From the human T2T-CHM13v2.0 reference genome, Homo sapiens: 64,000 nt of DNA. Every line of letters starts with the position of its first letter. The stretch's first letter is position 1. The DNA is taken from assembly GCF_009914755.1 (NCBI RefSeq), contig NC_060925.1, one strand, 5' to 3'. Under the pieces are notes generated by a model. That model was not told the DNA's origin. It saw only the letters and a program-made list of their open reading frames with translations, and did no database searches. The translations under genes and the position numbers were made by a program. Positions 28,291 to 36,769 of the stretch are shown here, in pieces.

Positions 28291-29662
28291 CAGACTAAAC
28301 TTCTTGAATGCTATTCTTACTGATATTGAGTCTATGATTCTTAAAGTCCAAGAGGGTACAGTTGTTAACAGGTTGTTTGAAGTCTTAAAATTTTAATCTA
28401 AAATACCACTAATATCTTCCTGGATCTGTATCAGCAGAAGTACTTCAATCTTAGGTATCCTAGTTCCCCAGAATCCCAGCCTTCACTGTAATATATTTGG
28501 TGCTGGTCTAATGCCCTAAGGTTCTCAGTCTCTAAGACAGTTTGACTCTTCTGGAAATCAAAGGCTGTTCTATAGAAAACAGACAGTTTGATTAAAAAAC
28601 ATTCTATTGATGCCAAATGTTTGTTTGAAAATTCTCTCCAGGAGAAGGCTCTTCCAGAAACTGTATACAGATCAGAGATGCCAATGAGACTCAGGCTCAT
28701 TTAAAAATTGTGTCAACTGACAAGGCTAAAAATGAAGACTCCCTTAGTATTCCAAGAGCACTGAGAAAATTTCCAGTTTAATTAGTTAAATGCTGTCATT
28801 ACATTGATACATACATATTGCTCTCTTATTTGTGTCATTATGTATTTTTGTGCTTCTATCTTGTTATTTGATGTTTGTACTGATCATTCTCCAGGTTCGG
28901 GATTCTCATTCTTGTGTAGCTCATCACATTTCTTACTACAGGGCTACCCATGTCACAGATAGACAATAAATGTTGTGGGAGATAGTAATGAGTTTTTAAA
29001 AGACTTCCATAGAATAAGATTCACTCGGTAACCCACTTCAGTTTACAAGATTGTTCCTCATTCCTTGCCCAAATCCCTCACACTGAGGCTTATATCCATT
29101 TATTGTTTGGAACGCAGGGGAGATAGAGAACAGCTGATCACCATCTTCCACATAATCGCCCTTCATATTTGTATCTGGGTGGAGCTTACATTCAAGACAG
29201 AAGCTTAGGGCCCAGTATGAGACTGGCTGAATAGGCTTTGTTCTTTAAAAATGTTAAAACTGCCATCACTCGGCCTACTGCTCTTTTAAATGAGTTTTCT
29301 TTTTTCCTACACCAGTTTCAGCGGTTTTCCAGGGTAGGAAGACCAAGTGACTAGACATCTGAATAAGCATTAATATGTTTTGCAGTCTTCATTCAGCTCA
29401 CAACCCTTCAATATCATTTTGTTCCACAATAATTCAGGTCAATTCTTGAAACACAGTATGAGACATGTTATCAATGCCTTTAGCCCTGAAGAAGTCCAGC
29501 TTAAGTAGGCTTTTCCCAAAATCGTGTATTGCTTCTTACCTTACTAGTCATATGCACCATTTTCACTCTGGTTTTTAATGAACAGTTTACCTGAAATAAA
29601 TTGGCAATAAAATTTATTAACATTTTTTGTTCTCGTATCATTTTGAACTTTGCTTTTCATTT

Positions 29663-31136
29663 TTTTTTTTTAATTTATTGATTGATTGATTTATTGATCA
29701 TTCTTGGGTGTTTCTCGCAGAGGGGGATTTGGCAGGGTCATAGGACAATAGTGGAGGGAAGGTCAGCAGATACACAAGTGAACAAAGGTCTCTGGTTTTC
29801 CTAGGCAGAGGACCCTGCGGCCTTCCGCAGTGTTTGTGTCCCTGGGTACTTGAGATTAGGGAGTGGTGATGACTCTTAAGGAGCATGCTGCCTTCAAGCA
29901 TCTGTTTAACAAAGCACATCTTGCACCGCCCTTAATCCATTTAACCCTGAGTGGACACAGCACATGTTTCAGAGAGCACAGGGTTGGGGGGTAAGGTCAC
30001 AGATCAACAGGATCCCAAGGCAGAATAATTTTTCTTAGTACAGAACAAAACGAAAAGTCTCCCATGTCTACTTCTTTCTACACAGACACGGCAACCATCC
30101 GATTTCTCAATCTTTTCCCCACCTTTCCCCCCTTTCTATTCCACAAAACCGCCATTGTCATCATGGCCCGTTCTCAATGAGCTGTTGGGTACACCTCCCA
30201 GACGGGGTGGCTGGCCAGGCAGAGGGGCTCCTCACTTCCCAGTAGGGGCGGCCGGGCAGAGGCGCCCCTCACCTCCCGGACGGGGTGGCTGGCCGGGCGG
30301 GGGGCTGACCCCCCCACCTCCCTCCCGGATGGGGCGGCTGGCCTCGCGGGGGCTGACCCCCCACCTCCCTCCCGGACGGGGTGGCTGCCGGGCGGAGACG
30401 CTCCTCACTTCCCAGATGGGGTGGCTGCCGGACGGAGGGGCTCCTCACTTCTCAGACGGGGTGGCTGCCAGGCAGAGGGTCTCCTCACTTCTCAGACGGG
30501 GCGGCTGGGCAGAGGCGCTCCTCACATCCCAGACGGGGCGGCGGGGCAGAGACGCTCCTTACTTCCTAGATGGGATGGGCGGCGGGGAAGAGGCGCTCCT
30601 CACTTCCCAGACTGGACAGCCAGGCAGAGGGGCTCCTCACATCCCAGACGATGGGCGGCCAGGCAGAGACGCTCCTCACTTCCCAGACAGGGTGGCGGCC
30701 GGGCAGAGACTGCAATCTCGGCTCTTTGGGAGGCCAAGGCAGGCGGCTGGGAGGTGGTTGTAGCGAGCCGAGATCACGCCACTGCACTCCAGCCTGGGCA
30801 CCATTGAGCACTGAGTGAACGAGGCTCCGTCTGCAATCCCGGCACCTCGGGAGGCCAAGGCTGGCGGATCACTCGCGGTTAGGAGCTGGAGACCAGCCTG
30901 GCCAACACAGGGACACCCCGTCTCCACCAAAAAAATAGGAAAACCAGTCAGGCATGGCGGCGTGCGCCTGCAATCGCAGGTACTCGGCAGGCTGAGGCAG
31001 GAGAATCAGGCAGGGGGGTTGCAGTGGGCCGAGATGGCAGCAGTACAGTCCAGCTTCGGCTAGGCATCAGAGGGAGACCGTGGAGAGGGAGAGGGGGAGA
31101 GGGAGGGGGAGGGGAGGGGAGGGGGAGGGGGAGGGG
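29663..31136 (-). mobile_element. Full-length SVA retrotransposon (C/D-like; subfamily uncertain)
   Basis: Minus-strand order: (CCC(T/C)CT)n hexamer ~31083-31136, Alu-like ~30700-31080, GC-rich VNTR ~30190-30700, SINE-R ~29690-30185, AATAAA (29690-29695), A tail. Confidence 0.97.
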
Positions 31137-31242
31137 ATATGTTTGATCTTATTCCTGCTATCTTATTGTATGTCTTCTTGTTGTTTCCAGAGAAGACAAT
31201 AGTGGGTAGGATGAAAAAGTAGAGCCAAGTTGAACAGTAATG

Positions 31243-31254
31243 CTGCTGCTGCTA

Positions 31255-31286
<32 letters not shown>
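31243..31286. repeat. (GCT)n-(GAT)n trinucleotide repeat
   Basis: GCTGCTGCTGCTAAT(GAT)n. Confidence 0.95.
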
Positions 31287-31288
<2 letters not shown>

Positions 31289-31289
31289 G

Positions 31290-31552
31290 GGGGATGGAGG
31301 AAAATAAAGAGGATAGAGGATTGAAAGATGATTCCTTGATATAAAGCTTGGTCAACTGATAAACGAAAGGAATAAAAGCCTTCTTTTGCTTGTTTTTGTA
31401 ATGGTAGAGATGATAAGTTTAGTTTAAGTCCTTTCAAGTCCTTATGGCATATAAGTAGAGACATGCCACAAAAGCAGTTGGATATCAAATCTGCAGCTTA
31501 TGAAAGTTTTCATCTACATATCCATGGTTCTACAGGAGAATCTGAATGTTGC
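31290..31552 (-). mobile_element. L2 fragment within the transduced segment
   Basis: GATGATAAGTTTAGTTT..AGTAGAGACATGCC..GCAGTTGGATAT matches L2 RT region; peptide ISNC..SLLICHKDLK resembles L2 ISNCLLDISTWMSHRHLK. Confidence 0.65.
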
Positions 31553-32566
31553 CTTTGCCATTCCAACTGAACTGGCATTCAACTCTGAGATCCCTTGGTT
31601 GGTCTTGTCTCCACATTCCCATATCCCGAAGTCAGCAGTTTTATATGCAGCTTCAATGTAAAACACAAGGTTCTGTATGAAATTGACTTCATCTAGGCTG
31701 TGGATGATATGGAGTCCTGAGGCAGTCATTTGGGCTAAGAAGAGCAGGTACACAGAGGTAGCATCCAACTGCAGGTGTCCCCATTGATCATCACCCACTA
31801 CAGTGGCACAGGTTTTGGTGTTGTACTTTGCATGGAGGCTATCCTTAGTACTCTGACTATATTTGAAGGATTCTACTTTATCCACCTGTCTGATCATGCA
31901 GTGCAGTAGTCCTCTCATCAGCTTCACTACACTCTGCTCCAATTCATAGGCCTTTGCCTTATCCTCATCCCGGTCTGCATTCTTCCGATAGGCCAGGCCC
32001 AAACCCCACACAGCCAAGATGCTGTACACATTATCTCGGACCCAAGCATCTTTCTGAACATAGCTGGCTGGAAGCAAGCCAGTCACTGGATTCTGATGGC
32101 ACAGGATGGCCTGTTGCACCAGTCGAGCGTAGCCGTCCAGCCGGACCCCGGAGTTACTCCGGCTCTTCATGGCGACATGTTACTAATTGTCCTCTGAGAA
32201 ATAGCCCGGGTGCCACCGGAGCCTTCGGTCCCTAAGGAACAAGTATCCAACGCTGCTCCACCCTCGTGGTGGGACGCCTGAACACCAGGCCCCGCAGAGC
32301 CCTCCCACCGCTCAGGCCTGGCGCCGCGGGTTCCGCGTAGCTCTCCGGACTCCGGCGGCCTCAGGGGCCCACCACGCGCCAGCGCTAGCACTGGCTTCCC
32401 GCGGTCTAGAGCCCCGCCGCAGCGCCCCAGTCGCCGCTCCTGCCCCCTTAGTCCAGTCCGGCCTCCACGTGTGACTCCTGCATCCTCCCCTCAACCCCGG
32501 GAGACCGCCGCGGCCCACAGCCTCCCGCCCGGCCGCCGCCAACAGGTCAACGACCGCTGCGCCGCC
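31514..32566 (-). pseudogene. PHKA1P1: Processed, 3'-truncated copy of phosphorylase kinase alpha-1 (5'UTR and codons 1-206) with an open 218-codon frame
   Basis: Intronless ORF 31514-32170 ([20 protein letters not shown]...[11 protein letters not shown]) nearly identical to the PHKA1 N-terminus; diverges at or just after K206. Confidence 0.95.
32120..32566. promoter_or_regulatory. CpG-rich island derived from the PHKA1 5'UTR
   Basis: GC- and CpG-dense stretch in an AT-rich background; E-box CACGTG near 32466 and GGGCGG (minus strand) near 32525-32530. Confidence 0.7.
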
Positions 32567-32613
32567 TGCTTTTCATTTATCAGACTATTTTCCTTCCTTT
32601 TTGAGTCTGTCGA

Positions 32614-32745
32614 GGCTGGGTGTGGTGGCTCATGCCTGCAATCCCAACGCGTTGGGAGGCTGAGGCAGGAGGATTGCTTGAGGCCAGGAGTTTGAGACCA
32701 GCCTGGGCAACATAGCAAGACCCCCATGTCTACAAAAAATAAATT
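32614..32745 (+). mobile_element. FLAM_C / Alu monomer
   Basis: Single left-arm monomer with short A-rich tail. Confidence 0.85.
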
Positions 32746-35700: not shown

Positions 35701-36769
35701 AAAAAAATCAAACAAAAACCAATAAATAACAAATACTAACAACTCCTCTCTAGGTATGGTAATAAACTCTACAATTTGACGCAGAAAAGGGTTAAGACAA
35801 TCATAGTAATCCCTTGCCAGTGACTGTTTAGGAAAGGGCATCTCTGCTGTGTCTGCCAATGACAATGTGGGAGAGGTCACCCAACGTTATTCTGATTTTT
35901 CCTTGCTCTTAAAACTTAAAAATTGATTTTGAGGATTTACTGTTTAAAATTTTCTAAATCAATAGTTACAAAACATACATGCTAAATGTTTAACTGAATT
36001 TCTTCCACTCCCAAAGGATAAATATAACAAAGAATATAATATAAGTACAAGAAAGGAGTGACAAATAAATAATGGATTACAGGCAATTATTTAAGAAAGA
36101 AGTTCCCTAGGGATATATCAGATTAAGGTCTATAGAAAACAACTCCAATTGAAGGGTTTTAAAATTATGTCATTGGTAGGGGGTAACCCTTTGATAGAAA
36201 GCACAGGTGCCTGATTAAAAAAACAAATATCTACCACCTATTGCCACCACAGATTCCAAAGTAGCAATTGCAGAAGCAGCAATTCAGACAAAGAAGTCTT
36301 GCTGGTTACCAATCTGATTTAGCTCCAGGATTCTTTCTGGACTAGAGATCAGGGTGAAGAGTCTTCTCTAGAACTTCTTTTCCTGGGACCCCACTCTGGT
36401 TCTTGTTTGGCCTACGATGTGGTAGGGATAGGATGAGGTAGAGCTTATGCTTTTATCGGAGACAGGCAGTGTTGAGCTGAACTTACAGGAGATGTAAGCG
36501 AGAAATGAAAAGCATAAAGAAACCAGAAAGCACTAAGGTTACAAGAGAGAAAGAACACTCAGCCTAGAAGCAATCACTTTTTAACTTTCTGATAACATGA
36601 AAAACTCCACCTTATAACAAACACAATGCCCAACAGCCAGGACCTATTAGCCCTGCTCCTCATAAGGAATGAGAACTGCAGTAGGGTATACTCGCTCTTG
36701 GGAGCTGGAGTGTACTGCTAGCTGCCTGCAGGAGAACTGACATTTAAAACACATTTTGCTTGAGATCCT

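What the first reader, a model, noticed from the sequence alone, without database searches (positions are those of the whole stretch)
29651..32578. PHKA1 pseudogene and SVA are one insertion: SVA 5'-transduction of spliced PHKA1 exons
Seen: TGCTTTTCATTT occurs at 29651-29662, next to the SVA poly(A), and again at 32567-32578, immediately beyond the PHKA1 5'UTR. The SVA has no matching TSD at its own hexamer end, and the pseudogene has no poly(A) of its own. The nick site reads 5'-ATTT/AT, close to the L1 endonuclease consensus TTTT/AA. Established: SVAs use L1 machinery and can carry upstream host exons (5' transduction). Inference: a PHKA1-promoter-driven, spliced mRNA ending in an intronic SVA was retroposed as one 2904-bp unit. 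This would explain why the pseudogene is 3'- rather than 5'-truncated and would date it to hominids. Standard annotation would list the two parts separately. I cannot tell whether published SVA transduction surveys already list this case.
Basis: partly seen in the sequence, partly recalled or inferred. Interest (0 to 1): 0.88.

Follow-up and report, generated by a model that had tools for sequence, protein, structure and literature searches.

The report
SVA carrying spliced PHKA1 exons
The PHKA1 pseudogene and the SVA repeat beside it are one human-specific retrotransposed unit, an SVA that carried six spliced PHKA1 exons with it; this is a real but ordinary event that is already listed in print.

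Summary

- **One insertion.** Window 29663-32566 (2,904 bp, minus strand) lies between exact 12-bp target-site duplications at 29651-29662 and 32567-32578.
- **Order, 5' to 3'.** PHKA1 exons 1-6 precisely spliced (32566-31553). Then 416 bp of PHKA1 intron 6, entered through an AG acceptor 112 nt into the intron (31552-31137). Then a full-length SVA: hexamer, antisense Alu-like region, VNTR, SINE-R, AATAAA and a 9-nt poly(A).
- **Why the parts belong together.** The PHKA1 part has no poly(A). Neither part alone has a duplication.
- **Parent match.** The chrX-derived 1,430 bp differs from the parent by 11 substitutions (0.77%). It occurs nowhere else in this genome, so there are no sibling copies.
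- **Caveat.** The PHKA1 intron-6 site on chrX in this assembly is empty, and there is no SVA within 20 kb downstream. The source SVA is therefore inferred as lost or polymorphic. A template-switch chimera remains a minor rival.
- **Already in print.** Mori et al. 2016 list the whole block (2,861 bp in GRCh37) as a human-specific retrocopy. Pugacheva et al. 2016 list PHKA1 among promoters trapped by SVAs.

Known kind, known case, low interest.

The parts
32567..32578 (-). 5' target-site duplication (AAATGAAAAGCA on the element's strand). Its last base is also the base before the match in chrX, so there is 1 nt of ambiguity.
32093..32566 (-). PHKA1 exon 1 (474 bp). The 5'UTR is 32171-32566 and the ATG is at 32168-32170. 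GC 69%, CpG o/e 0.87. 7 substitutions against chrX.
31934..32092 (-). PHKA1 exon 2 (159 bp; 1 substitution)
31886..31933 (-). PHKA1 exon 3 (48 bp; 0 substitutions)
31717..31885 (-). PHKA1 exon 4 (169 bp; 0 substitutions)
31634..31716 (-). PHKA1 exon 5 (83 bp; 0 substitutions)
31553..31633 (-). PHKA1 exon 6 (81 bp; 1 substitution, at a CpG)
31137..31552 (-). 416 bp of PHKA1 intron 6 (chrX:71108464-71108877 in this assembly). It is entered at an AG acceptor 112 nt into the intron and ends with no GT donor directly at the SVA hexamer (2-nt CC overlap). 2 substitutions, a 5-bp deletion and a 9-bp (ATC)3 gain against chrX. Unannotated in RefSeq.
31085..31136 (-). SVA 5' hexamer-type repeat (about 9 degenerate C/T-rich units)
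30711..31084 (-). SVA Alu-like region. It matches Alus elsewhere in the window and is antisense to the neighbouring Alu-type repeat at about 32612-32745.
30267..30710 (-). SVA VNTR (GC-rich units of 37-47 bp, about 8-9 copies)
29672..30200 (-). SVA SINE-R region with two AATAAA (29690-29695 and 29674-29679) in a TCAA-interrupted tail
29663..29671 (-). poly(A) tail, 9 nt
29651..29662 (-). 3' target-site duplication. The first-strand nick is 5'-ATTT/AT on the + strand.

Best explanation
This is a single L1-mediated (target-primed reverse transcription) insertion of one chimeric RNA, an SVA 5' transduction. Inferred steps: a sense-oriented SVA once sat in intron 6 of PHKA1 on the X chromosome. 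A transcript started at the PHKA1 promoter and spliced exons 1-6 normally. It then used an AG acceptor 112 nt into intron 6 to open a terminal exon, which ran 416 nt through intron sequence into the SVA and was polyadenylated at the SVA's own signal. L1 proteins copied that RNA into chr1 at an ATTT/AT nick, making a 12-bp duplication. Shown: the anatomy, the splice junctions, the chrX origin, the duplication, the lack of sibling copies, and the empty chrX site in this assembly. Inferred: that the source SVA existed at that site and was later lost or is polymorphic.
For: (1) The 12-bp duplication brackets the composite at exact register (P about 1e-7). Neither part alone has a duplication, and the PHKA1 part has no A-tract.
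(2) The non-SVA 1,430 bp maps to seven collinear pieces of one chrX gene on one strand. These are six exons joined at the parent's GT-AG boundaries plus a piece of intron 6.
(3) The intron piece begins just after an AG preceded by a T-rich tract. It ends at the hexamer with no GT, so the join to the SVA is collinear read-through and not splicing.
(4) The 218-aa open frame equals residues 1-207 of the solved human PHKA1 chain with 4 replacements and hits Pfam Glyco_hydro_15.
(5) The 3' block has the SVA layout described in PMC12593883: hexamer, antisense Alu-like region, VNTR and SINE-R. Its SINE-R has 2,350 first-look candidates in this genome, and 40 of 40 scored are 97-100% identical.
(6) Divergence from the parent is 11 substitutions in about 1,421 aligned bp (0.77%, 3 at CpG). 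That fits the human-specific status in Mori et al. 2016.
(7) The same mechanism (canonical splicing, then read-through of intron into an SVA) is documented for LINC02916 and UQCRC1. In that survey sources were found for 34 of 67 singleton transductions, so missing sources are common (PMC12593883, passages).
(8) PHKA1 is named among SVA promoter-trapping events (PMC5007689).
Against: The source element was not found. In this assembly the intron-6 site reads straight through. The SVA query found no VNTR or SINE-R match in the 20 kb downstream, only Alu-type hits. Only one haploid genome was examined. The source's own duplication cannot be identified inside the transduced piece; an EN-like T/AAGA 14-16 nt before the junction is only compatible. 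An AATAAA about 68 nt downstream of the junction in the native intron means that a natural short PHKA1 isoform using the same acceptor could exist without any SVA. That removes one argument against the template-switch rival.
Confidence: 0.8

Rival explanations
1. Template-switch chimera. L1 reverse transcriptase copied an SVA RNA from another locus to its 5' end, then jumped to an internal position of a PHKA1 transcript (exons 1-6 plus a natural alternative terminal exon in intron 6) and copied that to its cap. This gives the same layout without any SVA ever being in PHKA1.
For: No SVA lies at or within 20 kb downstream of the chrX site in this assembly. There is a 2-nt microhomology (CC) at the junction. 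A native AATAAA about 68 nt past the junction could define a natural terminal exon. SVA copies with the same unusual TCAA-type tail exist elsewhere and could be donors, the closest being chr10:121.11 Mb at 98.5% over 527 bp. Template switching between an mRNA and an SVA RNA has been proposed once, for CKS1BP (PMC12593883).
Against: It needs the SVA RNA to be copied exactly to the start of its hexamer and then a jump into the middle of a rare isoform. In the 2025 survey this mechanism was invoked for one case, against many ordinary transductions with or without a recovered source. Collinear intron sequence abutting the hexamer is the standard signature of read-in from a flanking locus.
Confidence: 0.14
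2. Two independent events: a PHKA1 processed pseudogene and a separate SVA insertion happen to lie side by side, as the annotation implies.
For: RefSeq lists PHKA1P1 (31548-32567) and a masked repeat (29644-31139) separately, with 31140-31547 unassigned (hub annotation).
Against: The pseudogene has no poly(A) and no 3' exons. The SVA has no duplication of its own. The only duplication brackets both. The gap between them is PHKA1 intron 6 continuing the same transcript. Mori et al. report the whole 2,861-bp block as one human-specific insertion.
Confidence: 0.01
3. DNA-level duplication or transposition of a chrX segment next to an SVA.
For: None beyond the chrX homology.
Against: About 38 kb of introns are removed exactly at GT-AG boundaries. 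The unit ends in AATAAA plus poly(A) and has a 12-bp duplication at an L1-type nick site.
Confidence: 0.01

Closest known systems
SVA 5' transductions made by canonical splicing of upstream exons followed by read-through of intron into the SVA (LINC02916 and UQCRC1 cases; PMC12593883, passages seen)
   Same: Host promoter, exons joined at normal splice sites, then intron sequence collinear with the SVA 5' end, termination at the SVA poly(A) signal, and one duplication around the whole unit.
   Different: Here six exons are carried, not two. The intron is entered through an internal AG acceptor and not by plain read-through of the donor. The source SVA is absent from the assembly. The insertion is not a recent polymorphism: it is 0.77% diverged from the parent and present in both GRCh37 and this assembly.
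SVA_F1 (MAST2 exon 1 spliced into an SVA; Damert 2009, Hancks 2009, Bantysh and Buzdin 2009. These three were not held and are known to me only through citing papers.)
   Same: A CpG-rich first exon of a host gene is placed at the 5' end of an SVA by transcription from the host promoter. Pugacheva et al. group PHKA1 with it as 'promoter trapping'.
   Different: In F1 the exon splices into an acceptor inside the Alu-like region and replaces the hexamer. Here the SVA is complete, hexamer included. F1 founded a subfamily. This unit has no sibling: only the window and the chrX parent match.
Classical L1-mediated processed pseudogene
   Same: Intronless copy of an mRNA, full length at the 5' end, with a target-site duplication and an L1-type nick site.
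   Different: It lacks the gene's 3' exons, 3'UTR and own poly(A). The tail is supplied by the SVA. It contains 416 bp of intron.
Pathogenic SVA exon-trapping alleles (FKTN, CLN7; named in PMC10681720 introduction)
   Same: A sense intronic SVA activates a cryptic splice site, and the transcript ends in or near the SVA. The inferred source allele in PHKA1 would have behaved this way.
   Different: Those are living disease alleles at the host gene. Here only the retrotransposed RNA copy survives, and the host-gene allele is not seen.

Membership tests
SVA composite retrotransposon | 5' hexamer-type C/T-rich repeat | tested here: met
   TRF: period 6, 9 copies, 31085-31136. The units are degenerate.
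SVA composite retrotransposon | Alu-like region in antisense orientation | tested here: met
   22 hits to Alus elsewhere in the window. The SVA sense strand aligns in minus orientation to the neighbouring + strand Alu-type repeat that carries its A-rich tail on the + strand.
SVA composite retrotransposon | GC-rich VNTR of roughly 35-50-bp units | tested here: met
   TRF periods of 37, 40 and 47 over 30267-30710.
SVA composite retrotransposon | SINE-R 3' module shared with thousands of dispersed copies, ending in AATAAA and poly(A) | tested here: met
   2,350 first-look candidates, and 40 of 40 scored at 97-100% identity on many chromosomes. AATAAA plus A9. The HERV-K origin of SINE-R was not tested. 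No repeat library was available, so the family name rests on the layout as described in PMC12593883. The subfamily (D, E or F) was not determined.
SVA 5' transduction | Non-SVA sequence lies between the 5' duplication and the SVA 5' end, inside one pair of duplications | tested here: met
   1,430 bp at 31137-32566.
SVA 5' transduction | The transduced sequence maps uniquely to another locus, in the SVA's orientation | tested here: met
   chrX PHKA1, seven collinear pieces on one strand.
SVA 5' transduction | A source SVA lies immediately downstream of the transduction's origin (confirmatory; the literature accepts cases without it) | tested here: inconclusive
   Absent at the site and for 20 kb downstream in this one haploid assembly. 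Other haplotypes and apes could not be searched. In PMC12593883 sources were found for only 34 of 67 singleton transductions.
SVA 5' transduction | The source element's duplication is recognisable at the 3' end of the transduced piece | tested here: inconclusive
   An EN-like T/AAGA lies 14-16 nt before the junction, but without the source it cannot be verified.
L1-mediated (TPRT) insertion | Target-site duplication of 7-20 bp, a poly(A) tail, and a nick site resembling TTTT/AA (consensus recalled) | tested here: met
   12-bp duplication, A9 tail, ATTT/AT nick.
Classical processed pseudogene | The 3' end of the parental mRNA with its own poly(A) | tested here: not met
   The copy stops after exon 6 plus the intron piece. 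The longest T-run on the + strand within 64 nt of that end is 3.

The most novel reading that the evidence does not exclude
The unit is a molecular fossil of an extinct X-linked PHKA1 allele. On this reading, a sense SVA in intron 6 trapped PHKA1 transcripts through a cryptic acceptor and truncated the protein after residue 207, as pathogenic SVA exon-trapping alleles do today. That allele vanished from the population, possibly by selection in hemizygous males. Only the retrotransposed copy of its aberrant mRNA survives on chr1.
Probability: 0.3. Interest if true: 0.4.

Novelty: already known. Interest (0 to 1): 0.22.

Why it matters
The result shows that a RefSeq pseudogene, an unannotated 408-bp gap (31140-31547) and a masked repeat are one event, and it explains the gap as PHKA1 intron 6. 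It gives a clean, fully resolved example of exon shuffling by an SVA: six spliced exons and a CpG-island 5'UTR moved from X to chr1. It also records a source element that no longer exists in the reference. Beyond better annotation and a possible record of an old exon-trapping allele, it changes nothing about how SVAs are understood to work.

Tried and rejected
- **Sibling copies.** I searched this genome with the intron piece and the exon part. Only the window and the chrX parent matched, plus two 80-81% hits at chrX:18.5 Mb, which I take from recall to be the paralog PHKA2.
- **Source SVA.** I read the chrX site and compared the SVA with 20 kb downstream. There were no VNTR or SINE-R hits.
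- **Donor lineage through the odd TCAA tail.** A pattern search at up to 2 mismatches found 4 places, one of them the window itself. The closest SINE-R, on chr10, is 98.5% identical over 527 bp. That is related but not close enough to name a donor or to separate the two mechanisms.
- **Separate duplications.** I tested for duplications around the SVA alone and the pseudogene alone and found none.
- **Literature not reached.** Damert 2009 (PMC2775593), Hancks 2009 (PMC2775590) and Hancks and Kazazian 2010 (PMC2945828) are not held. I therefore could not see Table S3 of Pugacheva et al., the 2009 transduction tables, or polymorphic-SVA call sets that might list an SVA in PHKA1 intron 6.
- **Earlier scan findings.** These were closed.
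- **Not attempted.** The SVA subfamily was not determined because no repeat library was available. Primate orthologous sites could not be aligned because no primate genomes are held. The human-specific status rests on Mori et al. 2016.
Full report
**Observation.** The 12-mer TGCTTTTCATTT is exact on the + strand at 29651-29662 and 32567-32578.
- At up to 1 mismatch the window holds 5 matches. Three are exact, the third on the - strand at 36503. The shuffle mean was 1.49, and 1 of 100 shuffles reached 5.
- A repeated 12-mer is not remarkable in itself. The window has 677 direct exact 12-mer pairs 2-4 kb apart, 180 of them from words seen at most three times.
- The register is what matters. One copy touches the end of the T-run that is the element's poly(A). 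The other touches the last base with homology to chrX. At fixed register the chance is about 1.2e-7.
- Comparing 40-nt flanks, only the composite has a duplication. The SVA alone and the pseudogene alone share no word of 6 or more. The pseudogene's 3' end has no T-run longer than 3.

**Anatomy.** The element lies on the - strand. A search of the window's own genome with 31540-32590 gave 9 matches. These were the window itself, six collinear pieces of one chrX gene at 71.11-71.15 Mb (98-100% identity), and two 80-81% hits at chrX:18.5 Mb, which I take from recall to be the paralog PHKA2.

Alignment to the fetched loci places the pieces as follows:

| Piece | Window coordinates |
|---|---|
| Exon 1 | 32566-32093 |
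| Exon 2 | 32092-31934 |
| Exon 3 | 31933-31886 |
| Exon 4 | 31885-31717 |
| Exon 5 | 31716-31634 |
| Exon 6 | 31633-31553 |

Each boundary falls at a GT-AG intron of the parent.

The open frame from the ATG at 32170 is 218 aa.
- Residues 1-207 equal the solved human phosphorylase kinase alpha (skeletal muscle) chain with 4 replacements, followed by 11 new residues.
- Pfam gives Glyco_hydro_15.

**The unassigned stretch.** The stretch 31137-31552 is not annotated by RefSeq.
- It has exactly two genomic matches: itself and chrX:71108464-71108877. That is PHKA1 intron 6.
- In the parent it begins right after an AG that follows a T-rich tract, 112 nt downstream of exon 6.
- At its far end the parent continues with unrelated intron sequence and no GT. 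The window continues with the SVA hexamer after a shared CC.
- The join to exon 6 is therefore a splice. The join to the SVA is collinear read-through.

**The SVA.** From the junction the element has these parts:
- a degenerate hexamer repeat at 31085-31136;
- an Alu-like region that matches Alus in the window (22 hits) and is antisense to the neighbouring Alu-type repeat;
- a VNTR of 37-47-bp GC-rich units at 30267-30710;
- a SINE-R block with 2,350 first-look candidates in this genome, of which 40 of 40 scored are 97-100% identical;
- two AATAAA in a TCAA-interrupted tail, then A9.

This is the layout given for SVA in PMC12593883 (passage seen). No repeat library was at hand, so the subfamily is not assigned.

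**Age.** Against the chrX parent there are 11 substitutions in about 1,421 aligned bases, or 0.77%.
- They fall as 7 in exon 1, 1 in exon 2, 1 in exon 6 and 2 in the intron piece. Three are at CpG sites.
- An apparent twelfth mismatch at 31551 is an artefact of aligning across the splice junction.
- There is also a 5-bp deletion and a gain of three ATC units.
- All 4 coding changes alter the protein relative to the solved chain, as expected without constraint.
- Scaled to a recalled human-chimpanzee divergence of about 1.2%, this suggests a few million years, with wide Poisson error.
- Mori et al. 2016 (PMC5010893; outline and sections 5 and 7 read) list PHKA1P1 at GRCh37 chr1:91356714-91359574, 2,861 bp, among 16 retrocopies absent from chimpanzee, gorilla and orangutan.
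- The distance from that interval to ZNF644 matches this window. That length can only be the whole block including the SVA, although their text never says that an SVA is part of it.
- All 12 retrocopies they could assay were transcribed. PHKA1P1 was not among the 4 excluded.

**Mechanism.** The best reading is an SVA 5' transduction. A sense SVA sat in PHKA1 intron 6. A PHKA1-promoter transcript spliced exons 1-6 and opened a terminal exon at the internal AG. It then ran into the SVA and used its poly(A) signal. L1 machinery inserted the RNA at an ATTT/AT nick on chr1.

The same route (canonical splicing, then read-through of intron into the SVA) is described for LINC02916 and UQCRC1 in PMC12593883.

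**Evidence against this reading.** These points should be weighed fully.
- The chrX site in this assembly is empty.
- The SVA query finds only Alu-type hits, and no VNTR or SINE-R, in the 20 kb downstream.
- Only one haploid genome was examined.
- In PMC12593883 a source was found for 34 of 67 singleton transductions. The authors accept that sources may be lost or rare. For an insertion millions of years old, a lost polymorphic source is unsurprising.
- An AATAAA about 68 nt beyond the junction in the native intron means the terminal exon could exist naturally.
- That point keeps alive the rival in which reverse transcriptase switched from the 5' end of an SVA RNA onto such a PHKA1 transcript. 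A template switch has been proposed once for an SVA (CKS1BP).

I put the transduction at about 0.8 and the template switch at about 0.14. Side-by-side independent insertions and DNA-level duplication are excluded.

**Relatives of the SVA part.** A pattern search for the unusual tail found 4 places at up to 2 mismatches, one being the window. The best SINE-R match, on chr10, is 98.5% identical over 527 bp. A small lineage with interrupted tails exists, but it names no donor.

**Is it known?**
- Searches of the held library gave 4 papers for PHKA1+SVA+transduction, 2 for PHKA1P1, 11 for PHKA1+SVA as whole words and 7 for PHKA1+retrotranspos.
- Two are relevant. One is Mori et al. 2016, above.
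- The other is Pugacheva et al. 2016 (PMC5007689, passages of section 10). [quoted passage not shown]
- PHKA1 exon 1 has only the parent and this copy in the genome, so this must be the locus they mean.
- No held main text gives the exon-and-intron anatomy or notes the missing source.
The case may be catalogued there too.

**Verdict.** This is a known kind of event and a known case. The new detail is the anatomy (six exons plus a 416-bp intron-6 exon), the lack of siblings, and the absence of the source in this assembly. Interest is low.

Noticed in passing
window 29622-30351: The RefSeq 'enhancer' feature in the hub table covers the 3' duplication, the poly(A), the SINE-R and the first VNTR units of this SVA. 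The annotated regulatory element is therefore SVA sequence.
   Followed up: no
L002 about 1400-1497 (chrX intron 6, minus strand, just past the junction): A native AATAAA lies about 68 nt downstream of the point where the SVA joins, followed by a GT-rich stretch. PHKA1 may have a natural short isoform ending in intron 6 that uses the same acceptor.
   Followed up: partly
window 29663-32566 against GRCh37 chr1:91356714-91359574: The insertion is 2,904 bp in this assembly but 2,861 bp in the table of Mori et al. 2016. The difference is about one VNTR unit, which suggests length polymorphism of the element among humans.
   Followed up: no
window 31255-31286: The (ATG)n microsatellite inside the transduced intron piece is three units longer than in the chrX parent. 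A 5-bp TTATA-type indel also separates the two copies.
   Followed up: yes
L013/L019 (chr10:121.11 Mb), L014 and L015 (chr11:89.78 and 89.90 Mb, opposite strands), L022 (chr3:75.33 Mb), L023 (chr7:113.87 Mb): A small group of SVA copies shares AATAAA tails interrupted by TCAA or TAAA units, like the one here. The two chr11 copies made identical changes from the window's copy in the aligned SINE-R and flank and lie 122 kb apart in inverted orientation, which looks like a segmental duplication.
   Followed up: partly
window 32612-32745: A short Alu-type repeat (monomer-sized, with its A-rich tail on the + strand) lies 35 bp from the insertion's 5' duplication. It is outside the duplications, so it belongs to the chr1 target flank and not to the inserted unit.
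   Followed up: no
window 36503-36514 (- strand): This is a third exact copy of the 12-mer. It is in the opposite orientation and 4 kb away, consistent with chance in AT-rich sequence.
   Followed up: no
PMC5010893 against PMC5007689: The two papers differ on what drives transcription. Mori et al. state that none of their retrocopies is transcribed from its 5' CpG island. [quoted passage not shown]
   Followed up: no
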